Source: a virus. Taken from it: DNA of 46,145 bases. Location: the IMG/VR virus record IMGVR_UViG_3300037087_000773; one strand, written 5' to 3'. Positions 8,716 through 25,031 of this stretch are shown here, one piece after another; positions within the stretch are counted from its first letter, which is position 1, and the number at the start of each line of letters is the position of its first letter. The notes beneath the pieces were generated by a model. That model was not told where the DNA came from and searched no databases. It saw nothing but the letters and a program-made list of their open reading frames with translations. The position numbers and the translations under genes are program-made.

Positions 8716-10632
8716 ATGTTAGATTCTATAAGTTTTCAAAATAATGGTTGCCGTTTTAATTATCTTTGGATGGGCGAAAATGGTTTAAATTTAACAGTTT
8801 ATATAATAGATGGATATACAAAATTAATCTATCATAGAGGACAGATGAACACGGCTTACAATTGTGGTTATTATATGGAAACTTCTGTTGATGTAAAACA
8901 TAAAATATTCGCAATATATGATGATTCCGAAAAAGATTTTATATTTAAAATTGAAAATAATTACGGTAGTATTGATTTAAGCGAAATTGATTATAAAGGA
9001 TATTTTAAAAATATAGGTAAGGATATTCCAAGTGATTCAGAATATAAAAATGTTTTAATACCGTTATATGAATTATTTATAGGTAAAACATATGAACACG
9101 ATAGATGTAAAATTAATTCAGGTGATGTTGTTTTTGATATAGGGGCCAATATAGGTGTTTTTACATATCATGCTTTATATAGTGGATGTAAGAAATGTTA
9201 TGTGTTTGAACCAGTTTATAAGTTGACAGACCTAATAGAAAAAAGACTTCAAGATGTTGTATACACCGGCCAAGTTGTGATAGAAACAGCAGCTATTAGT
9301 AGTCAGGATGGTATAGACGAAGAATTTTATATTAGTGAGGGTGGAATTACCTCTTGTTTAGTAAAAAATAACGATTCTATTTTTTATGATGAAAAAATCG
9401 GATTATACCGTCGCCTAACTGTTCCAAATAATGACTTTTATAATAAAGTATATGTACGAACCATTAATATTATGAATTACATAAAACAAAACAATATTGG
9501 AAAAATTGATATGTTGAAATGTGATTGTGAGGGAGGTGAATACGATATGATTGATAGTCTTGATAATGATTATTTATCAAATAACATCGAAAAAATGATA
9601 ATAGAATATCATTATCATTGGAAAGACAAATCAAGATATCATAAGATGTTGGATAAATTAACTCAATGTGGTTTTCAATATACCAACAATAGGGGTGAAG
9701 AATTCGAAAATTTTGATGATGGTATTGTATTCCTTTGGAAAAAAACCAAATTTGGTGAAAATAGATTTCATGTTTACTATGATGATAAAAATAGAATAAA
9801 TATATCAACTTATATGAAAAATTTAGATGCTAAAGTTTCAATATTTGTTGGTGATGAATTGGTTCAATCAACCAAAACATTTTTTAATTTCAATGAATTC
9901 TGGTACAACACAGGTAGGAATATGAATAATCTTGATAATATAAGGGTAGAAATAAAAGATCAAAAAGATAATATAATTTATAAATCATTTCTAAACACTC
10001 AGGAAAAATATTACGGAGAATTCGAAACTGACAGATATATCAGAAATAATTTCTTTCCAGACTTATCATACAAAGGTATAATGGTAGAAGTTGGGGCCGG
10101 TCCACCTGAATTTTATAGTATGTCCAAACACTTCAGAGATAATGGGTGGAGATGTATTTGTGTAGATCCGAATCCGAAATTTGTTCAAGAACACAAACAA
10201 TTGAATAATGAGATATACGAAATAGCCTGTTCATTCGAAGAAAAAGAATCCACCTTTAAAATTGCTCTTCCTAATTGGATTGAAAAAATAGAAAATGAAT
10301 GGGATAAAAATCAAGGGATTAGTTTTTCAGCCTTAGATATAAAATATCCGTTAGATAATGATTTTAGAATCGAAGAAATTCCAGTTAAAGTTAAAAAATT
10401 AGATTCGTTATTGGAAGAATTAAATATTGAAAAAATTGATTTTTTATCTGTGGATACAGAGGGTTGGGAAATAGAAGTGATGAAAGGATTTGATGTGGAT
10501 AAATATCAGCCAAAGGTTATACTTTTAGAAAATGTTTTGCATTTAAAATCATATGAAGAATATATGTCTGAAAGGGGATATGAATTAGAATATATAATAC
10601 GATATAATTATATTTTTATAAAAAAGAATTAA
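8716..10632 (+). CDS. protein with two tandem FkbM-family methyltransferase domains (638 aa)
   Basis: Domain 1: VVFDIGANIGVFTYHAL...CYVFEP...IDMLKCDCEGGEYDMI. Domain 2: MVEVGAGPPEFYSM...CVDPNPKF...IDFLSVDTEGWEIEVMKGF. Both match the FkbM pattern (G-A-N-x-G...E-P...D-x-L-K-x-D-x-E-G-x-E). Confidence 0.7.
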   Translation: MLDSISFQNNGCRFNYLWMGENGLNLTVYIIDGYTKLIYHRGQMNTAYNCGYYMETSVDVKHKIFAIYDDSEKDFIFKIENNYGSIDLSEIDYKGYFKNIGKDIPSDSEYKNVLIPLYELFIGKTYEHDRCKINSGDVVFDIGANIGVFTYHALYSGCKKCYVFEPVYKLTDLIEKRLQDVVYTGQVVIETAAISSQDGIDEEFYISEGGITSCLVKNNDSIFYDEKIGLYRRLTVPNNDFYNKVYVRTINIMNYIKQNNIGKIDMLKCDCEGGEYDMIDSLDNDYLSNNIEKMIIEYHYHWKDKSRYHKMLDKLTQCGFQYTNNRGEEFENFDDGIVFLWKKTKFGENRFHVYYDDKNRINISTYMKNLDAKVSIFVGDELVQSTKTFFNFNEFWYNTGRNMNNLDNIRVEIKDQKDNIIYKSFLNTQEKYYGEFETDRYIRNNFFPDLSYKGIMVEVGAGPPEFYSMSKHFRDNGWRCICVDPNPKFVQEHKQLNNEIYEIACSFEEKESTFKIALPNWIEKIENEWDKNQGISFSALDIKYPLDNDFRIEEIPVKVKKLDSLLEELNIEKIDFLSVDTEGWEIEVMKGFDVDKYQPKVILLENVLHLKSYEEYMSERGYELEYIIRYNYIFIKKN

Positions 10633-13501: not shown

Positions 13502-13521
13502 AATTGTTTTTTATTGTTTTT

Positions 13522-13533
13522 TGAATTGACCCC
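13522..13533 (+). promoter_or_regulatory. GC-rich 12-mer TGAATTGACCCC in a divergent intergenic region
   Basis: This copy sits in the 144-nt divergent region between 13061..13501(-) and the 1615-aa gene (+). A second copy, TGGATTGACCCC, lies at 24987-24998 in the other divergent region heading glycan cluster II. Confidence 0.4.
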
Positions 13534-13645
13534 AATCAACTCATTTTTGAACTGAATAACTTTTCTATATAAAGTATCAAAAACAATTTGTTTTAACAAA
13601 CTTTAATGATTTTTATACCATATAATGAAAAAATCAAATTAATCA

Positions 13646-16600
13646 ATGAATCAGATTGATGATATTATCAAAAGTAGTAATTCCCAAGCCGGTCAAGATG
13701 TATTTGCTTATTATATATGTGACACGAACAATGGATATTTTATTGATATTGGATCTGGAACTCCAATCGGTATGAATAACACATATTTATTAGAAAAAAA
13801 CGGATGGAATGGATTAAACTTTGATTTTTGGGATAATAGAAAATCATATGAGGAATCCAGACGAACACCTTACATTATGGAAGATGTAAATAAAATAAAT
13901 ATGTCGAATTTTTTAGAAAAAATGAATTCTCCAAAAGTCGTAGATTATTTATCAATAGACATAGATGAAAATACTGATTATTTTCTATCTAATAATTTTC
14001 CTACTGATTACGAATTCAAAGTCATCACATTTGAACATAATTTATATCTCGATGGAGATTCATTGAAAAACAAATCAAAAAATTTCTTCATAGAACACGG
14101 ATATACTTTATTATGTGAAAATGTTGCACTCAGTTTCACATCCAAATATGATGTTTTTGAAGATTGGTACATCAATGAAAAATATATTGATATTAAGAAA
14201 TTCGAATTTTTGAAATCTTGTGGTTTACACTTTACTGAAATAATAAACAAAATAAAAGAACATGAATTGAATAATATAAAAATTTGTCTTTATACCATGT
14301 GTATAAATGAAGAAGAATTCCTGCCATTTTTCTTGGATTATTACACAAATTATGTCGGGGTGGATAAAATAGTTATTTATGATGGTGGTTCAACAGATAA
14401 ATCACATAGTATAATAAATAGTTATCCGAATACGGAATTAATACTGGAGCATGATGATAAAACTGATTCCTTCAGAGATCTTAGGATATGGAATGAAGAA
14501 TGGAAAAAATGTCGTAATGATTATGATTGGATGATTGTATGTACACCAGATGAATTCTTATATCATCCAGATTTAAGGAATAAATTAATCGAATATAAAA
14601 AAAATGGAATTACCATCCCAAATGTAGAGGGATTTGATATGATATCTTTGAATCATCCTAATTATGATAAAGGAAATTATTTACCAAACCAAATAAAAAG
14701 AGGAATAAAAGATTCAACATTCTTAAACAAAAATATCATATTCAATCCAAAAGAGATTGATATTAATTATCATGTCGGTTGTCATGGTTGTAATCCCACT
14801 GGAAATATCAAATTCAGTGAAGAATATGATTTCAAATTACTTCATTATAAATGGATATCTTATGATTTTCTAATGAGAGATTCTAAAAGAAAATATGAAA
14901 GATTATCTGATAAAATGTTAGAAACAGGGGCTGGTGGACATTATAAAGTCTTTATTCAAAAAACATATGAAGAATATGTTCAAAGATATAATCAAACGAT
15001 ACAGGTTCTTGAAGAAGAAAAAGATATAAATCTTTTTTGGCATTGTTATCTCATTAATAATTGGGTGAAAATATTCAAAAATCAATTAAATAAAATTGTA
15101 GATAGTGGATTATATGAAAAACTTAATACCATTCATTTACATTATTTTGGAAAACCAGAAGAAGTTAAAATTTTATCAGAACTAATTTCAAGATATGATA
15201 AAATAAAGTCTTATGAAATAGAAGATAATTTTTATGAATATCCGACAATAAAACATATTCATAAATTTTCATCTGTAAACAATTCGTATGTTGGTTATAT
15301 TCATTTAAAAGGTGTCTGGAGTTCCATGAATAAAGAAAAAAATATTGAGGCTATAAATAGTTGGAGAAAATGTTTAGAATATTTCAACATAGAAAAATGG
15401 GATAACTGTATATCTAAGATAAATGAGGGTTATGAAGTGGTAGGGGCTTTATATAATTACAATGAAAAAGATCCCTTATTTAGTGGAAATTTTTGGTGGA
15501 CTACAACAGATTATATCAAAAAATTAAAATATCCTCAATATGATCCTTCAAAAAATCCATATCCAATGGATGATGGTACTTGGTGTAGGGTAGAATGTGA
15601 GAAATGGATAAATACAATACCGAATAAATTTTACAATTTTTATATACCAAAAGATTATGGTTTTTATCAAGTACCGATAGACGAAAATGATTATAAGGAT
15701 AAAAAGACAATAAATCATATTTATGAAAATATAGAGGGATGGTTTGATTTCGAAAAAATTTATTCTGATATGGTTAATAGATTTCCAAATGGATCTCATT
15801 TTGTTGAAATAGGTTCTTGGTTAGGAAAATCCACTTCTTATATGGGAGCTGAAATATCTAATTCGGGAAAAAAGATAAAATTCGATTCTATTGACACATG
15901 GGAGGGATCAAAAGGAAGTTGGGATGAACAAGTCCAGAATGACACAATAAATAATTTGAATATATCTTTATATCAAAAATTCTTAGAAAATGTAAGACCA
16001 GTTAAAGATTATATTAATCCAATCCAAGGATGGTCATATGATGTTGTTAATAGATATGAGGATAAATCCCTTGATTTTGTTTTTATCGATGGTGCTCATG
16101 ATTACGAATCTGTTAAAAAAGATATAAATGATTGGTATCCGAAAGTAAAAGATAATGGTGTTATAGCGGGTCATGATTATAATATTCACGATTGGCCGGG
16201 GGTCGTTCAAGCGGTAAATGAATTTTTTAATGAGGGAAATGTCTCAAGTGTCAAAAAAGATACTTGGTCTTGGATTGTAGATAAAAAAGAATTCGAAGAT
16301 TCGAAACAAAAAAATCATAAAATATCAATCATTATTCCGACATATAATCGTCCTGATATTTTAACAGAATGTATAAATTCAGTTTTAAAACAAAATTATG
16401 AAAATTTAGAAATACTTATTTGCCATGATGGTTTTTTTTCTGAATTTTATTGTTATGATTATAAGACCACAGACAAGAGAATATTCTATTACAATACAGA
16501 CAATCAATACAACAATCTGGGGGCGGCACAAAGAAATATGATGATATCAAAAGTAACTGGTGATTATATTCTTTTTTTAGATGATGATAATATTCTTTAT

Positions 16601-18493
16601 GATGGATATTTACAAAAGATGATAGAACAAATTGACAAAAATACAGGGATGGTTGTTTGTCGTATTCATTTTAATGATAAAGAATGGCTGAATTTAATAT
16701 TACCCCCTGATGATAGATTGATACCAGCCAAAATAGATCATCTTTCTATCCTCTTTAAAAGTGATATAGCAAAGAAATTTACATGGGATAATGATTGGGG
16801 TCAAGATCATCGTTTTATAAATAATTGTGAAAGATTATGTAATGAAAAAGGATTTGAAATAAAATATATTCCAAATATTCTTGCCAATCATCGTTATTTA
16901 AAAAGAGAGAATAGAATTGACGAATTATTAAAAGAAAAAAGATTAGAACAATATGATGATGATAATGGTGTAAATAGATTATTTGGATTAAAAAACATGA
17001 TAGATGAAAATCTAAACAAAGAATCTATAATATGTGAAGTAGGATCGTTTGATGGTAAATCCTCTGAATTGTTTGCACTATTAACTAAAAAGGTTTATTG
17101 TGTTGATCCTTGGGTTTTATATTCTCAGATAGATGATGAATCTATGATTAAATCCGAAGAAAAATTTGATAAATTATTGAATAAGTATAACAATATAATT
17201 AAAATAAAAAATTACAGTATAGAAGCCTCGAAAACATTTGAAAATGAATTTTTGGATTGTGTTTATATTGATGGTAATCATGATTATGAACCAGTTAAAC
17301 AAGATATCTTACATTGGATTCCAAAAATAAAAAGGGGAGGGTTCATAAGTGGACACGATTATCATTTTGAGGGAGTAAGAAAATCTCTAAATGAATTATT
17401 TCAAAATATTCCGATAAAAGTTTATTCCGACCAAAGTTGGGTTGTAAAAATAAATGATTATAGAAAGGGTGAAAAACCACATAAAGAAGTAGTCATTATG
17501 ACATCTCACCCAAACTATAAAATGTCAGAAGATATAACTAAACTGGCCATTAATTCTTTTGATAATAAAGATGTGATATTATCTGTACATTGTCCAGTAT
17601 CCATAGAATTACAAAATAAAGTAAAATATTTATTATATGATAAAAATAATCCCTTAATTCGTCATGATTATTATAATCAAAGTTGGTTTGAAACGACTGA
17701 ATATTATTCATTGATTAAACTTCATTATAATGATAATGATTTTCAACACGCTTTGGCTGTTTATATTAATTATTACAATGGTATAATGTATGCTAAATCA
17801 TTGGGTTATACGACAGCTATTTGTACCAATTTTGATATAGTTTTCAGTAAAGAAGATCTGAAAATAGTTGACGAAAAAATTAGTGAAATGTATCAATCTG
17901 GAAAAAAATCATTCTTTATGACATCAAATCCGAGTGAGGGAATACATTATAAAACAATTTTCTTTATAACAGATGTGGATTTCTTTTTGAATAATTTTAA
18001 ATATGTAACCAATGAGAAAGATTATAACAAACTAACCAGAGAAGTAGGATCTGAAACAAATTGTTTAGAGAATTTTTTCTATGAAACTTTAAAAAATTCA
18101 GATAAATTATTACTTCAACAAATAGAAGAAAAGGAATTATTTTCAAAAAGTAAGGTGAATATGTTCTCAAATATAGAATATTTCACTATTCTCCCACTGA
18201 GAGATGATAATGAACATTTTGTTATTTGGTTTAGTTCAGCAAATTCGATTGATAATAGGTCTATTGGAATCCATGTCCTAAAAGGAAGGGAAGCTATTTT
18301 TAGCCACAGTGGAAATATCAGTAAGGATTATAAATTCTATAAGGAAATAAAATTCGAGAAGGACTGTAATTATGAAGTAATATGTAATGTATATTACGAT
18401 GATATGGTAAATCAGAAAACAATTACCGTCAATAACGATGTTTTCTATAACAAATTAAAAGATTACGGAGATTTCTGGAAGAAATCAGTATAA
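13646..18493 (+). CDS. 1615-aa multidomain glycan-tailoring enzyme (FkbM-MT / GT-A / unknown / class-I MT / GT2 / class-I MT / unknown)
   Basis: Around aa 10-190, FkbM-like (AGQDVFAYYI...GYFIDIGSGTPIGMNNTYLLEKNGWNGLNFD). Around aa 205-330, GT-A domain (ICLYTMCINEEEFLPFFLDYYTNYVGVDKIVIYDGGSTD). Around aa 700-870, class-I SAM methyltransferase of Methyltransf_24 type (HFVEIGSWLGKST...DFVFIDGAHDYESVKKDINDWYPKVKDNGVIAGHDY). Around aa 890-1100, GT2 (ISIIIPTYNRPDILTECINSVLKQNYENLEIL...FLDDDN). Around aa 1130-1250, a second Methyltransf_24 domain (ICEVGSFDGKS...CVYIDGNHDYEPVKQDILHWIPKIKRGGFISGHDY). The aa 440-690 region and the C-terminal roughly 330 aa are unassigned. Confidence 0.8.
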   Translation: MNQIDDIIKSSNSQAGQDVFAYYICDTNNGYFIDIGSGTPIGMNNTYLLEKNGWNGLNFDFWDNRKSYEESRRTPYIMEDVNKINMSNFLEKMNSPKVVDYLSIDIDENTDYFLSNNFPTDYEFKVITFEHNLYLDGDSLKNKSKNFFIEHGYTLLCENVALSFTSKYDVFEDWYINEKYIDIKKFEFLKSCGLHFTEIINKIKEHELNNIKICLYTMCINEEEFLPFFLDYYTNYVGVDKIVIYDGGSTDKSHSIINSYPNTELILEHDDKTDSFRDLRIWNEEWKKCRNDYDWMIVCTPDEFLYHPDLRNKLIEYKKNGITIPNVEGFDMISLNHPNYDKGNYLPNQIKRGIKDSTFLNKNIIFNPKEIDINYHVGCHGCNPTGNIKFSEEYDFKLLHYKWISYDFLMRDSKRKYERLSDKMLETGAGGHYKVFIQKTYEEYVQRYNQTIQVLEEEKDINLFWHCYLINNWVKIFKNQLNKIVDSGLYEKLNTIHLHYFGKPEEVKILSELISRYDKIKSYEIEDNFYEYPTIKHIHKFSSVNNSYVGYIHLKGVWSSMNKEKNIEAINSWRKCLEYFNIEKWDNCISKINEGYEVVGALYNYNEKDPLFSGNFWWTTTDYIKKLKYPQYDPSKNPYPMDDGTWCRVECEKWINTIPNKFYNFYIPKDYGFYQVPIDENDYKDKKTINHIYENIEGWFDFEKIYSDMVNRFPNGSHFVEIGSWLGKSTSYMGAEISNSGKKIKFDSIDTWEGSKGSWDEQVQNDTINNLNISLYQKFLENVRPVKDYINPIQGWSYDVVNRYEDKSLDFVFIDGAHDYESVKKDINDWYPKVKDNGVIAGHDYNIHDWPGVVQAVNEFFNEGNVSSVKKDTWSWIVDKKEFEDSKQKNHKISIIIPTYNRPDILTECINSVLKQNYENLEILICHDGFFSEFYCYDYKTTDKRIFYYNTDNQYNNLGAAQRNMMISKVTGDYILFLDDDNILYDGYLQKMIEQIDKNTGMVVCRIHFNDKEWLNLILPPDDRLIPAKIDHLSILFKSDIAKKFTWDNDWGQDHRFINNCERLCNEKGFEIKYIPNILANHRYLKRENRIDELLKEKRLEQYDDDNGVNRLFGLKNMIDENLNKESIICEVGSFDGKSSELFALLTKKVYCVDPWVLYSQIDDESMIKSEEKFDKLLNKYNNIIKIKNYSIEASKTFENEFLDCVYIDGNHDYEPVKQDILHWIPKIKRGGFISGHDYHFEGVRKSLNELFQNIPIKVYSDQSWVVKINDYRKGEKPHKEVVIMTSHPNYKMSEDITKLAINSFDNKDVILSVHCPVSIELQNKVKYLLYDKNNPLIRHDYYNQSWFETTEYYSLIKLHYNDNDFQHALAVYINYYNGIMYAKSLGYTTAICTNFDIVFSKEDLKIVDEKISEMYQSGKKSFFMTSNPSEGIHYKTIFFITDVDFFLNNFKYVTNEKDYNKLTREVGSETNCLENFFYETLKNSDKLLLQQIEEKELFSKSKVNMFSNIEYFTILPLRDDNEHFVIWFSSANSIDNRSIGIHVLKGREAIFSHSGNISKDYKFYKEIKFEKDCNYEVICNVYYDDMVNQKTITVNNDVFYNKLKDYGDFWKKSV

Positions 18494-18823: not shown

Positions 18824-19351
18824 ATGAATAATCCAATTATGAAACCACTTAAAAAATTCGAACAGTTTGTGAATGAAGATGTATTGAAAGAAGCCCCAGC
18901 TTCTGTTCAAATGAAATATAATAATTATACTGAACTCGAACAAAAAGCTGTAGCTAAAAGAATTCTTTCAAAAGACAATTCGTTTTCTCCGTATGAAGCT
19001 GAACAATGGGCAAAAAATTATGATTTTTTAAAACAAGAATACGGTGAAGATTACGATTCCGTGGCAGATGAAATAATAAAGGATAGAAACAAGGAAAGAG
19101 AAGAAAAAATGAAAAATCCTATCTTATTAAAGGTTGTTGATGGTATCAACTCTGGTAAATTAAAAATTCTAAGGGGTGGTGAAAAAATGTATGGAAATAT
19201 AAAATTATCCATTACCGAATTAGTTTGGGCTCGTAACTTTGAAGATGGTTTCGACATCGATGTGTATGATGGTAAATTTGGTAGTCATGTTGGTTCAATC
19301 TCTTTGACGGCATCCACCGATTGGAAACCAAAAATAACAGAAGCTTTTTAA
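18824..19351 (+). CDS. small protein with N-terminal KKFEQFVNE leader (T4 capsid-targeting-sequence-like)
   Basis: MNNPIMKPLKKFEQFVNEDV... A second Met at 18839 would place the leader at residue 1. V-N-E fits the (I/L/V)-x-E pattern. Confidence 0.5.
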   Translation: MNNPIMKPLKKFEQFVNEDVLKEAPASVQMKYNNYTELEQKAVAKRILSKDNSFSPYEAEQWAKNYDFLKQEYGEDYDSVADEIIKDRNKEREEKMKNPILLKVVDGINSGKLKILRGGEKMYGNIKLSITELVWARNFEDGFDIDVYDGKFGSHVGSISLTASTDWKPKITEAF

Positions 19352-19353
19352 TT

Positions 19354-19653
19354 ATGAAATCACTTAAAAAATTCGAACAGTTTATAAATGAGATGAAAAC
19401 CAATCTATATTATGCACATATTGATGAGTTATACAAAGAAATAGAAAAAGATGAATATCTTCTATATGAATATCAGTCCTATGTTAGAGTAAATGATTTT
19501 GATGGTTTAAAAACATTCGTTGATAAAAATTTCGGATATTCTGAACAACAGTTTGAATACCTAAAAATGAAATTCGAGAAAGATGTAATCGAATACAAAA
19601 AGGATGATGAATCTGAAACAAAATCATTTAAACAAGAACACAATTTAGATTAA
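19354..19653 (+). CDS. small protein with N-terminal KKFEQFINE leader
   Basis: The ATG at 19354 lies 2 nt after the upstream stop: MKSLKKFEQFINEMKTN... The ORF track's start at 19321 is a TTG and is rejected. The body is unrelated to that of the upstream gene. Confidence 0.5.
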   Translation: MKSLKKFEQFINEMKTNLYYAHIDELYKEIEKDEYLLYEYQSYVRVNDFDGLKTFVDKNFGYSEQQFEYLKMKFEKDVIEYKKDDESETKSFKQEHNLD

Positions 19654-19830: not shown

Positions 19831-21230
19831 TAAAAATCTAACATTATCTACAAGAAATTACCAAAACTTACAAGTAAAAATAAATATGGAAAAAATCGGT
19901 ATTTTTAATTAATATATAGTATTTATAAGAAAGGGAATAAAACACCACCTTTTTTGTAATCTATGTTGAAAGCAATTAAAATACGATTATATCCAACGAA
20001 AACTCAAACAAGTTACATTAACCGCTTGTGTGGTTCATATCGTAAAGTATATAATATGTGTCTGGAAAAGAAGATAAACGCTTATAACAATGATAAAACC
20101 AGTTTAGGACTAACTGAACTTGGTCATTATTTTCATAACGAACTGACCAAGACAGAAGCGTTTTCATACCTGAATGAACATAACACCAAAGTGCTGAAAC
20201 AATCTGTCATAAATTTGTTAGATAGTTACAAACGATTCTTTGTTAACAACACAGGTTTCCCAAAATATAAATCCAAACACGATAATCAATCAGCCAGATT
20301 TCCGATTGAAGGTATATCAAAGTATAATATTTATTCAGATAACCGTGTAACGCTTGGTAAGTCATTGAAGAAAGTTAAATTTGAATGCTCAGACAGAGAT
20401 AAAACATATCTAACCAATTATAAAGATAAAATAAAGTCAGCAACACTATCCAGAACTAAATCTGATAAATATTTTCTTTCTATTTTGATTGAAAATATTA
20501 TAGAACCGATGGTAAATCCGACCAATGATATCATAGGTGTTGATGTTGGCATCAAGGATTTTATGGTTTGTTCAGATGGTCAGGTATTTGATAACTTGAA
20601 ATTAAAACGAAATAATGAAAAGACATTGGTTAAACTTCAACGCCAGTTATCGAAAAAAGTTGTTGGGAGTCATAATAGATATAAAGCCAAGGTAAAACTT
20701 GCAAGAAAATATGAAAAATTAAATAATAAGAAAATAAATTACATACATAACATTACAACTCAATTAGTTCGTGAGAACCAAACGATTGTTATTGAAGATT
20801 TGAATGTTAAAGGTATGATGAAAAACCATTGTTTGGCAAAGTCAATTCAAGACCTTTCAATTAATGAAACATTTAGACAATTAAAGTATAAATGTGAATG
20901 GTATGGAAGAGATTTGGTAGTGATAGATAGATGGTTTCCAAGTAGTAAACTATGTTCAAACTGTGGATATAAGTATAAAAACTTATCATTAAAAGAAAGA
21001 GATTGGGTGTGCCCTGATTGTGGTACACACCATTCAAGGGATTTCAACGCAGCGACAAACATAGTTAACGAAGGAAAGAGATTGATAGGTAGCCGTTCTA
21101 CCGAATTTACGCTTGCGGAGTATCCGCTTATGGATGACAAGGGAGTAATCCCCCTAAAAAGTAATGATACGATGAAACAAGAAGAATCAAATTTAACAAG
21201 GTTGTAGATTTTGTTAGATTTATTTTAACG
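19826..21230 (+). mobile_element. IS605/IS607-type (TnpB/Fanzor-like) element inserted into a GNAT gene
   Basis: Imperfect terminal inverted repeat: AAATCTAACA at 19834-19843 is reverse-complemented by TGTTAGATTT at 21212-21221. About 20 of 25 flanking positions match as an extended inverted repeat. The only ORF inside is tnpB. The GNAT reading frame stops just before the left repeat and resumes right after 21228. Confidence 0.55.
19963..21207 (+). CDS. tnpB: TnpB / OrfB RNA-guided-endonuclease-like transposon protein (414 aa)
   Basis: N-terminus IKIRLYPTKTQTSYINRLCGSYRKVYN (OrfB_IS605 N-terminal). RuvC-I IGVDVGIKDF. RuvC-II TIVIEDLNVKGM. Zinc finger CSNCGYKY...CPDCG. RuvC-III HSRDFNAATNI. 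All catalytic residues are present. Confidence 0.85.
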   Translation: MLKAIKIRLYPTKTQTSYINRLCGSYRKVYNMCLEKKINAYNNDKTSLGLTELGHYFHNELTKTEAFSYLNEHNTKVLKQSVINLLDSYKRFFVNNTGFPKYKSKHDNQSARFPIEGISKYNIYSDNRVTLGKSLKKVKFECSDRDKTYLTNYKDKIKSATLSRTKSDKYFLSILIENIIEPMVNPTNDIIGVDVGIKDFMVCSDGQVFDNLKLKRNNEKTLVKLQRQLSKKVVGSHNRYKAKVKLARKYEKLNNKKINYIHNITTQLVRENQTIVIEDLNVKGMMKNHCLAKSIQDLSINETFRQLKYKCEWYGRDLVVIDRWFPSSKLCSNCGYKYKNLSLKERDWVCPDCGTHHSRDFNAATNIVNEGKRLIGSRSTEFTLAEYPLMDDKGVIPLKSNDTMKQEESNLTRL

Positions 21231-21534
21231 GTCTTATTGGTATTTTGAAGATGATTTTTCAGAAGATGAATACAATGAATTATTTCCAGATGACCAATTC
21301 ATGAAAATACAACACTTAGAAATAAAACACAAGAAAAGTGGATTGGCTCGAAAATTAATGTTATTAGCCATTGAGAAATGCAAAGAATTAGGATTCAATA
21401 AAATTTATTTAAATGCCTCACCAATTGGACAAGAGGGATTGGAAATAACTGATTTGGTTTGGTTTTATAAAGGTTTCGGTTTTAAAGAGATACTAAATCA
21501 GGGACATAATGTTCAAATGTTATTGAATGTCTGA
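21229..21534 (+). pseudogene. C-terminal fragment of a GNAT acetyltransferase (frame open from 21229; first ATG at 21301)
   Basis: ...HLEIKHKKSGLARKLMLLAIEKCKELGFNKIYLNASP...FYKGFGFKE contains GNAT motif A (R/Q-x-x-G-x-A, acetyl-CoA binding) and the C-terminal beta strands. The frame is open for 24 codons upstream of the first ATG with no Met, which is consistent with a split gene. Confidence 0.55.
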
Positions 21535-22029
21535 CTTCAATAAAAAAGAAATTACATTTTGTAAAGGGGATTGTAACGATTTGATTATTTCCACTATTTT
21601 ATCATTTTTATTTTCATATTTAAAATCCATGTAAAATAGCGTACCACTTGGTGCATTTAATGGTTCACCAAAAGATTTGGTGAACTCCTTTTTCATATCT
21701 TCCAACTTCTGGTAATCTGTATCTACCTCATTAAAGATATCTTCTAATATCTTTTTTCTTTTCTCATTGGTATATTTTTCTTCATCTAATTCGTCTAATA
21801 AATCCAATCCCATTGTTTGTGCTGCTATTTTCATAGCGATTGGAAGAAGTATACCATCGAAAGAAGATGTAACACCAGATGGTGTAGAATCATCATTCTC
21901 TATTTTTTCTTCGATAGATTCAGCATATTCTGATAACCATTTCTTTTTCTCTTTATCTTGAATATTTAAAGAATTGATAATTGGTGCCCATTTTTTATAA
22001 AGGGATTCCTTATCTGGAGATTCGAACAT
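21520..22029 (-). CDS. hypothetical acidic protein (169 aa), last gene of the minus-strand accessory operon
   Basis: Intact ORF convergent with the GNAT fragment. No motif recognised. Confidence 0.45.
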   Translation of the reverse strand: MFESPDKESLYKKWAPIINSLNIQDKEKKKWLSEYAESIEEKIENDDSTPSGVTSSFDGILLPIAMKIAAQTMGLDLLDELDEEKYTNEKRKKILEDIFNEVDTDYQKLEDMKKEFTKSFGEPLNAPSGTLFYMDFKYENKNDKIVEIIKSLQSPLQNVISFLLKSDIQ

Positions 22030-22164
22030 TTAATCATTCAATAATTTTTTGAGATTTTTCAATCTTTTTTCATTTATTTTCATAGATTCTAACATGATGA
22101 TTTCATTTTCAAACCACACTATTTCTTCCTCTAATGTATCCTGAGATTTTTCTTCCTCTGTCAT
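22030..22164 (-). CDS. small ORF (44 aa) not in the ORF track
   Basis: Read directly from the sequence. It reads MTEEEKSQDTLEEEIVWFENEIIMLESMKINEKRLKNLKKLLND. The ATG overlaps the upstream stop as ATGA (22161-22164), and the TAA is directly followed by the next gene's ATG. Confidence 0.3.
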   Translation of the reverse strand: MTEEEKSQDTLEEEIVWFENEIIMLESMKINEKRLKNLKKLLND

Positions 22165-22631
22165 ATCAATATTCCTTTCAGTTTATATTCTCTCATTCTA
22201 TTGATAAATTCTTCATATGTATATTTTTCGGAAGAATCAACTTCGAATTTAAAATCAACACTATTTACATCTGATGTGAGATCCCAAAAATGTTTTTCAA
22301 CCGTTTTTAATCTGTTTTTAAAATACTCCATAATATTACGCCTATCACTCCAGATTAAATTTTCATACCAGACATCATTTCCACATGGACAATCCCAAAT
22401 AACAACATTATTCCCCATATCCATATAATATATACAACCATAATCAGATTCGATATATTTTTCTGGTTGTTCATCAGATAGTTTTTTCAGTCTTTCATAT
22501 TCACCATCTTCATAATCACCATGAGATTTAGCTGGATCACAAAAATATACACGACCACACATACACTCTTGACTTACGAATGATCCCCCACCTAACATGG
22601 AATTTCTAAAATCCTCAGATACTTCCATCAT
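22161..22631 (-). CDS. hypothetical Cys-rich protein (156 aa)
   Basis: Cys clusters (CMCGRVYFC...GCIYY...WDCPCG) suggest metal binding. Both neighbours overlap it by ATGA. Confidence 0.45.
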   Translation of the reverse strand: MMEVSEDFRNSMLGGGSFVSQECMCGRVYFCDPAKSHGDYEDGEYERLKKLSDEQPEKYIESDYGCIYYMDMGNNVVIWDCPCGNDVWYENLIWSDRRNIMEYFKNRLKTVEKHFWDLTSDVNSVDFKFEVDSSEKYTYEEFINRMREYKLKGILI

Positions 22632-22768
22632 CCATTGAGTTTTTTAGAGTTAATACGAATTTTTCCATTTTCATCAATTATCCAATACTTTTTCTTTTTT
22701 GGAAAATTATCCACAAATTTTTTGATTTGGTTCAAGTCCGATGACACACTTACTTCTTTTTTCATCAT
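22628..22768 (-). CDS. small ORF (46 aa) not in the ORF track
   Basis: Read directly from the sequence. It reads MMKKEVSVSSDLNQIKKFVDNFPKKKKYWIIDENGKIRINSKKLNG. It starts 1 nt after the nusG stop and overlaps the next gene's start by ATGA. Confidence 0.3.
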   Translation of the reverse strand: MMKKEVSVSSDLNQIKKFVDNFPKKKKYWIIDENGKIRINSKKLNG

Positions 22769-22769
22769 A

Positions 22770-23309
22770 TTATCCCTTTCTAAGTTGATTAAATTCTAAT
22801 GTCAATGGAGTTTTTCTACCAAATATTTTTACTGATACAGTAATTCTTCTTTTTTCCTCATTAATTTCATCAACAGTAGCATTGAAATTAGCGAAAGGAC
22901 CATCTGAAATAGTAACATTTTCCCCAATAACAAAAGGTATTTTAACTGAATCTGGACTTTCATTCATTTCATCAAGTTTCCCTAATATTCTCGCCACTTC
23001 AACATCTCTTAAAGGTTCTGGTGTACCACCCTTTGGTCCAAGAAAATGAAGAGCCCCAGTAATACTTTTTAAAATTCCTGTGAATTCACCACACATTTCG
23101 GCCTCTAAGAGGATATATCCCGGAAAATAGTTAACTTCACGAGTAACTTTCTTTCCATTTTTCACATAAAATTCCTTATGAGTAGGTATCACAATTTGAG
23201 ATACCTTATCTTTAAGCCCGTATTTTTCTATTTCACTTTCAAATTGTTTCTTAACTCTTTTTTCCCATCCACTATTTGAACGGATTACATACCATCTCAT
23301 ATTTGACAT
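22770..23309 (-). CDS. nusG: transcription termination/antitermination factor NusG (bacterial type, 179 aa)
   Basis: NGN domain: RWYVIRSNSGWEKRVKKQFESEIEKYGLKDKVSQIVIPTHKEF...VNYFPGYILLEA. The E. coli equivalent is RWYVVQAFSGFEGRV...VMVPTEEV...RKFFPGYVLV. KOW motif: FVIGENVTISDGPFANFNATVDEINEEKRRITVSVKIFGRKTPLTLEFNQL (E. coli [51 protein letters not shown]). It is not in the canonical secE-nusG-rplK context. Confidence 0.85.
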   Translation of the reverse strand: MSNMRWYVIRSNSGWEKRVKKQFESEIEKYGLKDKVSQIVIPTHKEFYVKNGKKVTREVNYFPGYILLEAEMCGEFTGILKSITGALHFLGPKGGTPEPLRDVEVARILGKLDEMNESPDSVKIPFVIGENVTISDGPFANFNATVDEINEEKRRITVSVKIFGRKTPLTLEFNQLRKG

Positions 23310-23327
23310 ATTTATAAATATTATTTT

Positions 23328-23756
23328 TTAATCTTCTTCTGCCATATAACAATTTTCATTATGATTTATGAAATTAATAACTGGTAAAAATAAATCCATA
23401 TTATTCATTTCATGTGGATAAAACCATCCAATATCTGAAAATTTATTTGGTTCATTTATTATTGGTTCACCATCCAGATAATAAGCAGACATCCAAATAG
23501 TCACATAATGTTCGTTCTCTTTTTCGAAAAAATCATTTGTTATTCCAACAAATAATGGTTTGGATATAACGATATTATCACCAGCTTCTTCTTTAAATTC
23601 TCTCATTGCACAATTATCAATACTTTCTCCGAATTCGATCTTACCTCCCGGTGGACACCATGTATTCGTACCCAATACACCAGTTCTTTTTAATAAAAGA
23701 TATTTACCATCTCTTTCTACATTAACGGCAACTCCAACTCTAACTACTTTATCCAT
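23328..23756 (-). CDS. NUDIX hydrolase (142 aa)
   Basis: Nudix box GGKIEFGESIDNCAMREFKEEAG (G-x5-E-x7-R-E-x2-E-E-x-G). Confidence 0.75.
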   Translation of the reverse strand: MDKVVRVGVAVNVERDGKYLLLKRTGVLGTNTWCPPGGKIEFGESIDNCAMREFKEEAGDNIVISKPLFVGITNDFFEKENEHYVTIWMSAYYLDGEPIINEPNKFSDIGWFYPHEMNNMDLFLPVINFINHNENCYMAEED

Positions 23757-24448
23757 ATTATTTTTTTTAATACATTTTCTTTTATTTTACCATATAGTTC
23801 ATCATCTTTTATTCTTATAAATTGGCATTTCAACGATTCTTCTATAATTTTTTGTCTTTTGATATCTTTATTTTTTAAATTTCCAAATACATCATAATGA
23901 TGTCTTTCATCCACTTCTAAACAAATATTAAGTTCTTTAACATATCCATCTACAGAATACGCCTTTACTTTAAATTGTCTTATTATTTTATAATTAATGA
24001 AATTTTCGATATAATCTAATATTTTAATTTCGTTTACTCCAATGCGTATATAACCAAGTTTTTCACATTTTTCTATCAAAAATTTTCTTCTTTTCTCTTG
24101 TACTTCTGGATCAAACAAAGGATTATTTTTCTTCATTCTTTCACTCTGATCAAAATTTTGTTTCCCCTTCCAATATTTAGGATTATCATTCCCTGTTAAT
24201 TTACCTTTTCTGTTTTTAGATATTTTCTCTCTAACCTCCGATCTTTTGGCTGGATTTTTATCACCCATCTTCGTTATTCTTATCTTATTTCCTATTTCCT
24301 GTGACTTTTCAGATCCAAAAACCTCAACAAAAGTTTTTCCTTTTAATTTAGATGGATGTCCCTTCTTCCCACGACCATTATGACCATTAATATAAGTATT
24401 ACCCGATTTTACTTCTTTACCACAACCACAGTCACATAAATTATTCAT
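23744..24448 (-). CDS. free-standing homing-endonuclease-like protein (N-terminal Cys cluster, NUMOD3 repeats, C-terminal PD-(D/E)xK/EDxHD-like nuclease)
   Basis: N-terminus CDCGCGKEV...NGHNGRGKKGH. It carries repeated NUMOD3-like units (GDKNPAKRSEVREKISKNRKGK; KGKTFVEVFGSEKSQEIGNKI). The C-terminal YSVDGYVKELNICLEVDERHHYDVFGNLKNKDIKRQKIIEESLKCQFIRI resembles Vsr/DUF559-type and EDxHD (I-Bth0305I-like) nucleases. It overlaps the NUDIX gene by 13 nt. Confidence 0.55.
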   Translation of the reverse strand: MNNLCDCGCGKEVKSGNTYINGHNGRGKKGHPSKLKGKTFVEVFGSEKSQEIGNKIRITKMGDKNPAKRSEVREKISKNRKGKLTGNDNPKYWKGKQNFDQSERMKKNNPLFDPEVQEKRRKFLIEKCEKLGYIRIGVNEIKILDYIENFINYKIIRQFKVKAYSVDGYVKELNICLEVDERHHYDVFGNLKNKDIKRQKIIEESLKCQFIRIKDDELYGKIKENVLKKIIWIK

Positions 24449-24468
24449 TTTTAATATATTATTTACTA

Positions 24469-24927
24469 TTATATATTAAAAGTTAACCCATTTTTTAACT
24501 TTTCAAATAATTCTTCTATACTAAAACAGACATTTCCACCATTACACATACAAAAAGCATACATTATATCCCACCTTTCGGGTTCTTCATCAAATAAAAC
24601 GAAACATTTTTTTCCACATCCAACCATATAACCTAATTCCAAATGACAAGATTTCCCAGCTGGCATTACCAAAATAGCTATATCACTTCTATCCAAATGA
24701 CTTTTATCAAATTCGAAAATATGTTTACCAGCCCATCCATTTAAAGCTTGTTTATAGGTACTATTTTTTGTTTTTTCGTATTTTCTCCAAAATTCATCAG
24801 CTTCTGGTCCGGGAGAAAACCAATCATCAAATACTTCAAATCCTATTTCTCTCAATTGATTTCCAATAATAGGAATATTTTCATTTCTTAATGATCCTAT
24901 TAAATAAATACATGGTGTTTTCTTCAT
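24469..24927 (-). CDS. nucleoside 2-deoxyribosyltransferase-like protein (152 aa)
   Basis: N-terminus IYLIGSLRNENIPIIGNQLREIGFEV (IYLAGPF-type). The conserved acidic core is DIAILVMPAGKSCHLELGYMVGCGKKCFVLF (compare DSGTAFEIGYAYALGKPV). Confidence 0.55.
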   Translation of the reverse strand: MKKTPCIYLIGSLRNENIPIIGNQLREIGFEVFDDWFSPGPEADEFWRKYEKTKNSTYKQALNGWAGKHIFEFDKSHLDRSDIAILVMPAGKSCHLELGYMVGCGKKCFVLFDEEPERWDIMYAFCMCNGGNVCFSIEELFEKLKNGLTFNI

Positions 24928-24986
24928 TAATTCTAAATTATTTTCTGTTTATATGAATCCGTATCTAAATTGTTTATCTTTTTAGT

Positions 24987-24998
24987 TGGATTGACCCC
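24987..24998 (+). promoter_or_regulatory. GC-rich 12-mer TGGATTGACCCC in the divergent intergenic region heading glycan cluster II
   Basis: This is the second copy, sharing 11 of 12 positions with 13522-13533. It lies 34 nt upstream of the 25032 ATG and 60 nt upstream of the 24927 start on the other strand. Confidence 0.4.
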
Positions 24999-25031
24999 GT
25001 TTTCTCCAATATATAAGAATAAAAAACCAAC

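What the first reader, a model, noticed from the sequence alone, without database searches (positions are those of the whole stretch)
21520..24927. Bona fide bacterial-type NusG encoded inside an accessory operon with NUDIX, a homing endonuclease and a deoxyribosyltransferase-like gene
The NusG here aligns to E. coli NusG across both NGN and KOW domains, far better than specialised paralogs such as RfaH or UpxY do. However, it is not in the universal secE-nusG-rplKA neighbourhood. Instead it sits mid-operon between small ORFs that overlap by ATGA, 3' of a NUDIX hydrolase. A mobile-element, phage or virus-borne nusG is rare. It could serve processive transcription of the very long glycan and leader-protein operons, which ties in with the 12-mer above.
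Basis: partly seen in the sequence, partly recalled or inferred. Interest (0 to 1): 0.7.

Follow-up and report, generated by a model that had tools for sequence, protein, structure and literature searches.

The report
Huge-phage copy of bacterial NusG
The window carries a complete, canonical bacterial-type NusG transcription elongation factor that belongs to a roughly 0.74-Mb huge bacteriophage, was captured from its Flavobacteria-like hosts, and is kept under selection inside the phage's sugar-coat (glycan) gene island.

Summary
Window 22770-23309 (-) encodes a 179-aa protein that passes NCBI's NusG equivalog cut-off (161.8 vs 135.7 bits). It aligns end to end with E. coli NusG and scores far lower on the LoaP, UpxY and RfaH models.

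It has no secE/rplKA/rpoBC neighbours. By contrast, 76 of 76 cellular relatives with enough flank have rplK directly downstream.

The replicon is not a bacterium. The exact protein lies on a 736,551-bp contig. The window is syntenic (24 ORFs, 30-87% aa identity) with LR756501.1, the curated 735-kb "Mahaphage".

NusG homologues occur once in each of the four >630-kb phage genomes. The window's lineage is well supported (NJ bootstrap 100), lies nearest freshwater Flavobacteriales NusG (52-55%), and shows dN/dS of about 0.1-0.3. In 7 of 7 contexts of this lineage it sits inside a glycan-biosynthesis island.

The NDT-like gene, DUF559 nuclease and TnpB are window-specific insertions.

The Rho/S10-contact loop (IFGR) and FPGY are retained. 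A few invariant NGN residues have changed.

Most likely it is a general elongation and coupling factor acting on host RNA polymerase for phage transcription. A dedicated UpxY-like or anti-Rho role is possible but unproven. I rate it a new member of a known kind, of moderate interest.

The parts
22770..23309 (-). nusG: 179-aa canonical NusG (NGN + KOW), phage-borne and of Flavobacteriales-type origin
   Evidence: TIGR00922 161.8 bits, above the 135.7 cut-off. Pfam NGN + KOW. E. coli NusG in PDB, E 1.6e-35 over the full length. AF2 model and Foldseek hits. PHROG 6386 'transcription antiterminator', E 5e-32. dN/dS 0.08-0.35 against relatives.
23328..23756 (-). Small MutT-like NUDIX hydrolase, 18 nt upstream of nusG. 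The adjacency is conserved in relative L014 (60% id).
   Evidence: PF00293, E 8.7e-18. PHROG 1198. No NCBIfam equivalog reached its cut-off. Orthologue directly upstream of NusG in L014.
23744..24448 (-). DUF559/Vsr-like nuclease, a putative selfish (homing-type) endonuclease. It is a window-specific insertion with its own ATATATAA box 20 nt upstream.
   Evidence: PF04480, 22.8 bits against a 20.6 cut-off. PHROG 12434 'HNH endonuclease', partial, E 1.8e-5. No homologue in L011, L012 or L014. Motif at 24476(-).
24469..24927 (-). Nucleoside 2-deoxyribosyltransferase-like gene, first gene of the string. It is window-specific at this position.
   Evidence: PHROG 12607, E 4.2e-18. Pfam PF05014 at 22.7 bits, below its 28.8 cut-off. 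No homologue near NusG in relatives.
22628..22768 (-). 46-aa ORF directly after nusG (junction TAAtATG). Function unknown.
   Evidence: Called as a gene on independent contigs.
22161..22631 (-). 156-aa Cys-rich protein (invariant C23, C25, C31, C81, C83), probably metal-binding. The family is restricted to this phage group. It follows NusG in L014 as well.
   Evidence: 13 clusters only. Alignment A1. L014 orthologue at 63% id. The AF2 model was too poor to use, pLDDT 59.
22030..22164 (-). 44-aa ORF, ATGA-overlapped with the 156-aa gene.
21520..22029 (-). 169-aa protein homologous to the N-terminal roughly 200 aa of the gp23-like major capsid protein of the related phage LR756501. This is a phage hallmark signal inside the window.
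   Evidence: BLASTP against LR 76415-78166, 30% over 198 aa, E 1.7e-14. That 583-aa protein matches Pfam Gp23 at E 1.8e-25 and PHROG 138 'major head protein'. The L014 orthologue hits Gp23 at E 1.7e-6.
24928..25031 (.). Divergent intergenic region heading the nusG-containing string and the opposite HAD/NTP-transferase glycan operon. It carries promoter-like boxes: CATATAAA at 24955(-), AATATATAA at 25008(+), TTGACCCC at 24991(+).
   Evidence: These are motifs only; function is inferred.
19963..21207 (+). TnpB / IS605 OrfB insertion next to the string. It is not part of the NusG module and is absent at this position in relatives.
   Evidence: PF07282, PF01385 and PF12323. Contexts.

Best explanation
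The gene is a host-derived, full-function NusG carried by a roughly 0.74-Mb Mahaphage-type huge phage of freshwater Bacteroidota (Flavobacteriales-like) hosts.

Shown:
- It is a canonical NGN+KOW NusG.
- It is phage-borne.
- It forms an old, vertically inherited phage lineage under purifying selection.
- In that lineage it always lies inside the glycan-biosynthesis island.
- The one complete related phage genome has a single nusG and no detectable RpoB, RpoC or sigma-70.

Inferred mechanism:
- During infection the phage protein loads through its NGN domain onto the beta' clamp helices and beta gate loop of the host multisubunit RNA polymerase. There it acts as a general anti-backtracking, processivity factor on the very AT-rich phage DNA with its long operons.
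- Its KOW domain keeps the conserved I-F-G-R loop, so it can still bridge to ribosomal protein S10 and/or Rho.
- The phage thereby keeps up or re-tunes NusG supply once host gene expression is shut down. This parallels the translation factors and ribosomal proteins that huge phages also carry.
- Its placement in the glycan island most likely reflects co-expression with those long operons, not sequence-specific recruitment.
For: - Identity.
- Phage replicon, contig and synteny: the exact protein and its neighbour lie on a 736,551-bp contig. 24 window ORFs have homologues in LR756501.1, with a syntenic glycan island at LR 294-338 kb.
- Phage replicon, hallmark and literature: LR756501 carries a gp23-like major capsid protein. 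It is the published 735-kb phage with predicted Bacteroidetes hosts (PMC7162821).
- Not a sequenced bacterium: no GTDB species genome holds this gene. The nearest cellular NusGs are at 52-55% (Crocinitomicaceae, Cryomorphaceae and other Flavobacteriales MAGs).
- Context contrast: 76 of 76 cellular loci have rplK within 600 bp downstream of nusG, against 0 of 8 phage-type loci.
- Phage lineage: NJ bootstrap is 98 for clade A, 100 for A+B, and 96 for all phage NusGs plus Flavobacteriales. dN/dS is 0.08-0.35.
- Related complete genome: one nusG. phmmer and tblastn with E. coli queries find no SecE, L11, L1, L10, RpoB, RpoC or RpoD; only L7/L12 is found.
- Retained functional motifs: FPGY, and I164-F165-G166-R167 at 95-100%. 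That loop is the validated Rho contact (PMC7593976).
- Generality: NusG in LR756502 and LR745206 sits among topoisomerase II and FEN genes, not glycan genes.
- Host-type signals: A-rich, Shine-Dalgarno-poor leaders, with an SD-like 4-mer at only 6 of 51 genes.
Against: - No experiment or expression data support the mechanism.
- The full 736-kb contig could not be read, so a phage-encoded RNA polymerase or a second nusG in this particular replicon is not excluded.
- Divergent phiKZ-like RNA polymerases and phage-type sigma factors would escape the E. coli-query searches of LR756501.
- Several otherwise invariant NGN residues are replaced in the phage lineage (E. coli E47 to H/R, V49 to E, H81 to G, V89 to A, G91 to H/S), as is KOW G146 to A. 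This hints at altered rather than purely housekeeping behaviour.
- The 7-of-7 glycan-island location is not explained by a purely general role.
Confidence: 0.6

Rival explanations
1. Dedicated glycan-island antiterminator. The phage NusG works like UpxY/RfaH/LoaP-type specialised paralogues and is needed specifically to read through the long glycan operons, which include 1,615-2,228-aa glycosyltransferase/methyltransferase genes. It would be recruited by a cis element or by local co-expression.
For: - In all 7 contexts examined for clades A+B (window, L012, L014, L116, L117, L118, LR756501), NusG lies inside a sugar-nucleotide/glycosyltransferase cluster, although its immediate neighbours differ.
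- In L116 it overlaps the upstream epimerase gene by 13 nt.
- Bacteroidota hosts use NusG paralogues (UpxY) for polysaccharide loci (PMC7819879).
- The lineage carries specific NGN substitutions.
Against: - It scores as the housekeeping equivalog. UpxY, LoaP and RfaH models are all far below their cut-offs.
- It keeps the Rho-contact loop, which RfaH lost early in its evolution.
- It is never the first gene behind a long leader.
- In the window it is convergent with the giant glycosyltransferase gene and in a separate short string.
- Clade C megaphage NusGs are not in glycan clusters.
- No shared recruitment motif was found.
- A glycan island of at least 45 kb could retain the gene by simple local linkage.
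Confidence: 0.2
2. Rho decoy, or protection of foreign DNA from silencing. The phage NusG displaces host NusG on RNA polymerase but does not productively activate Rho, or it sequesters Rho. This would protect the C-poor, AT-rich phage transcripts from NusG-assisted Rho termination.
For: - Sense strands are C-poor (G/C = 1.52; GC about 28%). In E. coli this is the class of RNA for which Rho needs NusG (PMC7819879).
- Clade A has an Ala at the position of E. coli G146, which is invariant in the bacteria sampled. From memory, E. coli G146D is a Rho-defective nusG allele.
- NGN substitutions could tighten RNA polymerase binding.
Against: - The I-F-G-R Rho-contact loop is 95-100% conserved, whereas RfaH-type Rho exclusion replaced it.
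- Clade B keeps G146.
- Nothing is known here about NusG-Rho interplay in Flavobacteriales.
- No evidence of stronger RNA polymerase binding was obtained.
Confidence: 0.12
3. Housekeeping nusG of an unrecognised low-GC bacterium or symbiont with scrambled gene order, or a bacterial fragment mis-assembled into the contig.
For: The protein passes the bacterial equivalog threshold. Some 'phage' database records with nusG are really bacterial DNA; for example, MaAM05 carries tRNA-secE-nusG-rplKA and ilvD.
Against: - The same arrangement is found on at least 19 independent contigs from several samples and assemblers.
- It is syntenic with a manually curated circular phage genome.
- A paralogue of the capsid-protein N-terminal region lies in the same gene string.
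- There is no match in 185,579 species genomes.
- No translation or RNA polymerase genes lie within 46 kb.
- GC content and leader style are uniform across the window.
Confidence: 0.03

Closest known systems
Bacterial housekeeping NusG (TIGR00922; E. coli NusG, Flavobacteriales NusG)
   Same: - Same two-domain NGN+KOW architecture and length.
- Passes the equivalog cut-off.
- 35% identical to E. coli NusG and 52-55% to Flavobacteriales NusG.
- FPGY and the I-F-G-R Rho/S10 loop are retained.
- The predicted fold matches NusG structures.
   Different: - Encoded by a phage, outside secE-nusG-rplKA-rpoBC.
- Long branch in the tree.
- Substitutions at otherwise invariant sites: E47H/R, V49E, H81G, V89A, G91H/S, G146A.
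NusG genes of the other >630-kb 'Mahaphage' genomes (LR756501/3, LR756502, LR745206, LR756504) and PHROG 6386
   Same: - One nusG per genome.
- LR756501's copy (56% id) is in the same glycan island with shared neighbours.
- All group with Flavobacteriales NusG.
- These genes are annotated as NusG in the supplementary GenBank files of PMC7162821.
   Different: - The window's phage is a distinct lineage, with no megablast match.
- Its immediate neighbours differ (NUDIX, nuclease, NDT-like).
- Clade C copies are only 35-40% identical and sit in replication-gene contexts.
UpxY family (Bacteroides capsular-polysaccharide NusG paralogues)
   Same: It is a NusG-family gene embedded in a polysaccharide/glycan biosynthesis locus of a Bacteroidota-associated genome. 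Long operons are the presumed beneficiaries.
   Different: - The UpxY model scores 55.8 against a cut-off of 100.
- It is not the first gene after a long 5' leader.
- It keeps the general-NusG KOW loop.
- No UpxZ-like partner was identified.
RfaH and plasmid-borne NusG-SP (tra-operon residents)
   Same: A mobile element carries its own NusG-family factor. The logic is a resident processivity factor for long, foreign, AT-rich operons (PMC7593976).
   Different: - RfaH models are far below their cut-offs.
- The Rho loop is not replaced.
- The KOW domain is predicted as a beta-barrel, and there is no evidence of autoinhibition or an ops-like site.
Cyanophage S-CRM01 nusG (HQ615693.1) and other annotated isolate-phage NusG homologues
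   Same: A phage genome annotated with a NusG antitermination factor.
   Different: These are only 27-29% identical to the window's protein, come from unrelated phages and hosts, and represent independent acquisitions.

Membership tests
NusG (general bacterial, TIGR00922) | Full-length match above the curated equivalog cut-off | tested here: met
   161.8 bits against a 135.7 cut-off, E 1.3e-47, model positions 1-171 of 172.
NusG (general bacterial, TIGR00922) | N-terminal NGN domain plus a single C-terminal KOW domain | tested here: met
   PF02357 at residues 4-109, E 7.5e-18. PF00467 at residues 129-158, 23.9 bits against a 22.3 cut-off. The AF2 model shows an alpha/beta NGN and a five-strand KOW barrel. 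Foldseek top hits are NusG.
NusG (general bacterial, TIGR00922) | KOW loop I164-F165-G166 (E. coli numbering), which contacts Rho and distinguishes NusG from RfaH | tested here: met
   I162-F163-G164-R165 in the window protein, 95-100% conserved across the phage lineage. The loop's role is taken from PMC7593976.
NusG (general bacterial, TIGR00922) | Genomic context secE-nusG-rplK-rplA(-rpoBC) | tested here: not met
   None of these genes is in the window or within 10 kb in the 7 related phage loci. 76 of 76 cellular loci have rplK within 600 bp downstream. This is a property of cellular loci, not of the protein family.
NusG (general bacterial, TIGR00922) | Binds the RNA polymerase beta' clamp helices and beta gate loop and reduces pausing and backtracking | not testable with these tools
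   Inferred only from homology. Substitutions at E. coli positions 47, 49, 81, 89 and 91 make this worth testing.
UpxY (NF033644) | Match above the family cut-off | tested here: not met
   55.8 bits against a cut-off of 100.
UpxY (NF033644) | Located in a polysaccharide biosynthesis locus | tested here: met
   7 of 7 contexts in clades A+B.
UpxY (NF033644) | First gene of the locus, downstream of a long 5' leader in which it prevents termination | tested here: not met
   It is the fourth gene of its string in the window and mid-operon or at the 3' end in relatives.
RfaH (TIGR01955 / NF006534) | Match above the cut-off, loss of the Rho loop, and ops-dependent recruitment | tested here: not met
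   36.8 bits (cut-off 144.5) and 27.9 bits (cut-off 124). The IFG loop is retained. An ops-like element was not searched for systematically.
LoaP (NF033641) | Match above the cut-off | tested here: not met
   82.0 bits against a cut-off of 125.
Mahaphage-type huge phage (replicon assignment) | Gene content and synteny shared with a curated member, plus a phage structural hallmark | tested here: met
   24 window ORFs match LR756501.1 at 30-87% aa identity, with collinear blocks. LR756501 has a gp23-like major capsid protein, and window ORF 21520-22029 is a paralogue of its N-terminal region. The carrying contig is 736,551 bp. A phylogeny of terminase or capsid genes from this replicon was not possible.

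The most novel reading that the evidence does not exclude
The megaphage NusG lineage is a sub-functionalised factor. It would out-compete host NusG on the host RNA polymerase and shield the phage's C-poor, AT-rich transcripts, above all the very long glycan-island operons, from NusG/Rho-mediated silencing of foreign DNA. That would make it a phage-borne functional analogue of RfaH/UpxY that evolved from a housekeeping NusG without losing the canonical sequence signature.
Probability: 0.2. Interest if true: 0.75.

Novelty: new member of a known kind. Interest (0 to 1): 0.45.

Why it matters
NusG is the only transcription factor conserved across all cellular life. It is normally locked into the ribosomal-protein and RNA-polymerase gene neighbourhood.

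A long-lived, selected NusG lineage inside the largest known phage genomes shows that these phages bring part of the host's transcription-elongation and coupling machinery, and not only translation factors.

It gives a concrete, clonable protein for several questions. How do huge AT-rich phage genomes get transcribed by host polymerase? Do they evade Rho silencing? Does the 'resident NusG for long glycan operons' logic of Bacteroidota (UpxY) have a viral counterpart?

In the open-access library searched, no paper mentions NusG together with huge or jumbo phages. The gene is annotated in public data but appears to be undiscussed.

Tried and rejected
- Megablast of window 15-35 kb against the phage collection: no match. 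The relationship to LR756501 shows only at the protein level.
- IMG/VR scan with NusG peptide patterns: nothing confirmed.
- Rfam and tRNA scans of the window: nothing.
- Bacteroidota -7 box TAnnTTTG: not enriched, 62 observed against about 76 expected.
- Sigma-70-type promoter and terminator scans: at background level.
- AF2 of the 156-aa Cys-rich neighbour: pLDDT 59, too poor for a fold search. An Spt4-like partner idea therefore stays untested and unlikely.
- Pfam and PHROG on the small neighbours of NusG in relatives: uninformative.
- Residue-level mapping of the lineage-specific substitutions onto the RNA polymerase interface: the papers I could read gave no residue lists, and PMC3142557 is not held. 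By alignment, E. coli H81 lines up with RfaH T67. That this lies in RfaH's 'HTT' gate-loop motif is from memory only.
- Literature searches for phage-encoded NusG: nothing relevant.
- Rejected: a giant eukaryotic virus, because of overlapping ATGA junctions, a T4-type capsid relative, and phage synteny.
- Rejected as a comparator: the 'Microcystis phage MaAM05' nusG, because that record looks bacterial.

Full report
**What is there**

The window (46,145 bp, about 28% GC) is densely packed with genes. The ORF at 22770-23309 on the minus strand encodes 179 aa. It has an NGN domain (PF02357, E 7.5e-18) and a KOW motif (PF00467, above its cut-off).

Against NCBIfam it reaches 161.8 bits on TIGR00922, the equivalog model for housekeeping NusG, whose cut-off is 135.7. 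The specialised paralogue models fall far short: LoaP 82.0 (cut-off 125), UpxY 55.8 (cut-off 100), RfaH 36.8 (cut-off 144.5). phmmer against PDB sequences aligns residues 4-178 with E. coli NusG 7-180 with a single one-residue gap (E 1.6e-35).

An AlphaFold2 model built on 30 relatives (pLDDT 82.3) shows the NGN alpha/beta fold, a disordered linker and a beta-barrel KOW. Its best Foldseek matches are general NusGs in elongation, antitermination and expressome complexes. RfaH appears only at ranks 25 and 33.

**The gene string**

On the minus strand the order is as follows:

| Coordinates | Gene | Junction with the previous gene |
|---|---|---|
| 24469-24927 | NDT-like | first gene |
| 23744-24448 | DUF559 nuclease | 20-nt gap |
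| 23328-23756 | NUDIX | 13-nt overlap |
| 22770-23309 | nusG | 18-nt gap |
| 22628-22768 | 46-aa ORF | TAAtATG |
| 22161-22631 | 156-aa ORF | ATGA overlap |
| 22030-22164 | 44-aa ORF | ATGA overlap |
| 21520-22029 | 169-aa ORF | TAAATG |

The NUDIX domain is clear (E 8.7e-18), but no NCBIfam equivalog is reached, so its substrate is unknown. The NDT-like call rests on PHROG 12607 (E 4e-18). The nuclease has a DUF559/Vsr-type domain plus a partial PHROG 'HNH endonuclease' match.

**What replicon this is**

- The identical NusG protein is on at least 19 contigs from several JGI, ENA and Logan samples. The longest is 736,551 bp. The neighbouring 156-aa protein is on a contig of the same length.
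- The best match in the phage collection is LR756501.1/LR756503.1, at 56% NusG identity. This is the 735,411-bp manually curated circular phage of Al-Shayeb et al. 2020. It belongs to the 'Mahaphage' clade, whose >634-kb members were predicted to infect Bacteroidetes (PMC7162821).
- I fetched that genome in full. 24 window ORFs have homologues in it at 30-87% amino-acid identity. Collinear blocks fall in its glycan island (LR 294-338 kb). The window's major-vault-protein-like ORF has a 69% match.
- LR756501 encodes a T4 gp23-like major capsid protein (Pfam Gp23, E 1.8e-25; PHROG 138). The last gene of the NusG string, window 21520-22029, is a paralogue of that protein's N-terminal roughly 200 residues (E 1.7e-14).
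- A scan of one genome per 185,579 prokaryotic species found no copy of the window's gene. The nearest cellular NusGs are 52-55% identical and come from freshwater Crocinitomicaceae, Cryomorphaceae and other Flavobacteriales MAGs.
- Only 6 of 51 window genes have a Shine-Dalgarno-like 4-mer, and leaders are A-rich. This is the Bacteroidota style.

The replicon is therefore a huge phage of Bacteroidota.

**Context control**

Using E. coli SecE, L11, L1, L10, L7/L12, RpoB and RpoC as tblastn queries, all 76 cellular loci with at least 1.2 kb downstream have rplK within 600 bp of nusG, usually followed by rplA-(rplJ)-rplL-rpoB-rpoC. None of the 8 phage-type loci (window, L001, L002, L012, L014, L095-L097) has any of these genes. 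Separate searches of the whole LR756501 genome gave the same negative result around its nusG.

In the complete LR756501 genome there is exactly one nusG. phmmer and tblastn find no SecE, L11, L1, L10, RpoB, RpoC or RpoD; only an L7/L12 gene is found. Very divergent phage polymerases or sigma factors would not be seen by these searches.

**Evolution**

About 20 further protein clusters at 66-84% identity form the window's own clade, A. LR756501 plus three clusters form clade B.

| Grouping | NJ bootstrap (100 replicates) |
|---|---|
| Clade A | 98 |
| Clade B | 100 |
| A+B | 100 |
| Flavobacteriales NusG | 86 |
| All phage NusGs plus Flavobacteriales, excluding the other bacteria sampled | 96 |
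| Clade C (LR756502, LR745206, LR756504; 35-40% id) | 89 |
| A+B+C as a single clade | 41 (unresolved) |

Pairwise dN/dS among seven phage genes is 0.08-0.35, with synonymous sites saturated. The gene is old in these phages and is under purifying selection.

**Neighbourhood conservation**

In all seven clade A+B contexts NusG lies inside a glycan or sugar-nucleotide cluster. It is typically near a conserved giant multidomain glycosyltransferase/methyltransferase (1,615-2,228 aa, DUF8361), a C-methyltransferase, epimerases or DegT aminotransferases. The contexts are the window, L012, L014, L116, L117, L118 and LR756501.

Its immediate neighbours vary:
- NUDIX upstream in the window and L014.
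- An epimerase upstream in L116 (13-nt overlap) and L117.
- Unknown small ORFs in L012 and LR756501.

The NDT-like gene, the DUF559 nuclease and the nearby TnpB (19963-21207) have no counterpart at this position in relatives. They are window-specific insertions. The nuclease even has its own ATATATAA box 20 nt upstream.

In clade C phages the gene sits next to topoisomerase II and 5'-3' exonuclease genes (LR756502, LR745206), or near a GT2 and a rhomboid gene (LR756504).

**Functional residues**

Column-by-column comparison shows that the phage lineage retains the following:
- W9/Y10.
- P45/T46.
- The FPGY motif.
- The DGPF motif.
- The I164-F165-G166-R167 loop (E. coli numbering), at 95-100%.

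That loop is the experimentally validated Rho contact, and RfaH replaced it early in its divergence (PMC7593976).

The lineage has fixed changes at positions invariant in the bacteria sampled:

| E. coli position | Change in the phage lineage |
|---|---|
| E47 | H (clade A) / R (clade B) |
| V49 | E |
| H81 | G (clade A only) |
| V89 | A |
| G91 | H / S |
| G146 | A (clade A only) |

By alignment, H81 corresponds to RfaH T67. From memory, that is part of RfaH's HTT motif, which contacts the beta gate loop. I could not verify this in a readable paper.

**How it most likely works**

Shown: this is a canonical NusG, phage-encoded, selected, and linked to the glycan island. No RNA polymerase of the cellular type was detected in the one complete related genome.

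Inferred, from the established biology of NusG (PMC7819879):
- The NGN domain binds the host polymerase's clamp helices and gate loop and suppresses backtracking.
- The KOW domain tethers S10 (the ribosome) or Rho.
- A phage with 0.7 Mb of 28%-GC DNA and very long operons would benefit from keeping NusG stoichiometric with polymerase after host shut-off. This is analogous to the translation factors and ribosomal proteins discussed for huge phages (PMC7162821).

I put 0.6 on this general-factor model.

**Rivals**

- A glycan-island-dedicated, UpxY/RfaH-like role (0.2). The 7-of-7 location favours it. Against it are the family scores, the retained Rho loop, the position within operons, the clade C contexts and the lack of any recruitment motif.
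- A Rho-decoy or foreign-DNA-protection role (0.12). It is suggested by C-poor sense strands (G/C 1.52) and by G146A. The conserved IFGR loop argues against it.
- A bacterial origin or mis-assembly (0.03).

**Known or new**

JGI already names this protein NusG. The supplementary GenBank files of Al-Shayeb et al. annotate a NusG in at least one curated huge phage. PHROG 6386 collects phage 'transcription antiterminators'. Cyanophage S-CRM01 carries an annotated nusG.

No paper in the searchable library mentions NusG together with huge or jumbo phages, and nothing relevant turned up for cyanophages. The main text of the huge-phage paper does not mention it.

It is therefore a new member of a known kind: a phage-borne copy of a host transcription factor. 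Two features appear undescribed. It is present in all four >630-kb phage genomes, and it has stable residence in the glycan island of one lineage. I rate interest as moderate, at 0.45.

Noticed in passing
window 1-2424 (-), ORF runs off the window start: A protein of more than 807 aa has Major Vault Protein shoulder (E 6e-26) and MVP repeat domains plus a weak SPFH/Band-7 hit. It is 69% identical to LR756501 17179-19608. This is a vault-like protein conserved in huge phages.
   Followed up: partly
window 19963-21207 (+): A complete TnpB / IS605 OrfB (HTH + OrfB + Cas12f-like TNB) lies between the NusG string and the giant glycosyltransferase gene. It is present on all contigs of this phage but absent at this spot in relatives L012 and L014. 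No TnpA was seen, and omega-RNA and element ends were not examined.
   Followed up: partly
window 2766(-), 4648(-), 18810(+), 19912(+), 24476(-), 25009(+), 41239(-), 41276(+): The motif ATATATA[AG] occurs 21 times in the window. 7 of these lie in the 4.9% non-coding DNA, each 6-43 nt upstream of and oriented towards a start codon. One more lies 20 nt upstream of the DUF559 nuclease gene. It is a candidate phage promoter or -10-like box. The Bacteroidota TAnnTTTG box is not enriched.
   Followed up: partly
window 13526 and 24991 (+): The G+C-rich octamer TTGACCCC occurs in two divergent intergenic regions: 13502-13645, and 24928-25031, the region that heads the NusG string. It may be an operator or a -35-like element.
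   Followed up: no
window 21520-22029 (-): This 169-aa protein is a paralogue of the N-terminal roughly 200 residues of the gp23-like major capsid protein of LR756501 (E 1.7e-14). Orthologues follow NusG in L012 and L014. It is possibly a prohead-targeted or scaffold-interacting 'leader' protein.
   Followed up: partly
window 18824-19351 and 19321-19653 (+): Two adjacent small ORFs share an N-terminal motif, MKxLKKFEQFxNE. They form a small paralogous family with a common leader and have no family hits.
   Followed up: no
window 13646-18493 (+): A 1,615-aa multidomain protein has 2x GT2, 2x Methyltransf_24/TylF and DUF8361. Orthologues of 1,755-2,228 aa are always close to NusG in relatives. 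It is a conserved giant glycan-modifying enzyme of this phage group.
   Followed up: partly
window 22161-22631 (-): A 156-aa protein family has five invariant cysteines (C23, C25, C31, C81, C83). Only 13 clusters are found in 5.8 billion proteins, all metagenomic. The AF2 model was poor (pLDDT 59).
   Followed up: partly
window 21301-21534 (+): A 77-aa ORF has weak GNAT acetyltransferase similarity covering only the C-terminal part of the domain. It overlaps the 3' end of the 169-aa gene and is probably a gene remnant.
   Followed up: no
whole window: Sense strands are strongly C-poor (G/C = 1.52), and GC skew flips with gene orientation, reaching -0.40 over the NusG string. Leaders are A-rich, and only 6 of 51 genes have a Shine-Dalgarno-like 4-mer.
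   Followed up: partly
L098 (MW495066.1, 'Microcystis phage MaAM05', 32338-44859): This record, deposited as a phage genome, carries tRNA-Trp-secE-nusG-rplK-rplA together with ilvD, kdgK, kdgA and trxB. The stretch looks like bacterial chromosomal DNA, so it is not a valid example of a phage nusG.
   Followed up: no
L095/L096 (LR756502.1, LR745206.1), around locus position 10000: In these 634-642-kb phages, NusG is the last of a co-directional run that includes a type II topoisomerase (GyrB-like) and a 5'-3' exonuclease. LR745206 also has a SpoVR-like gene just downstream on the opposite strand.
   Followed up: no
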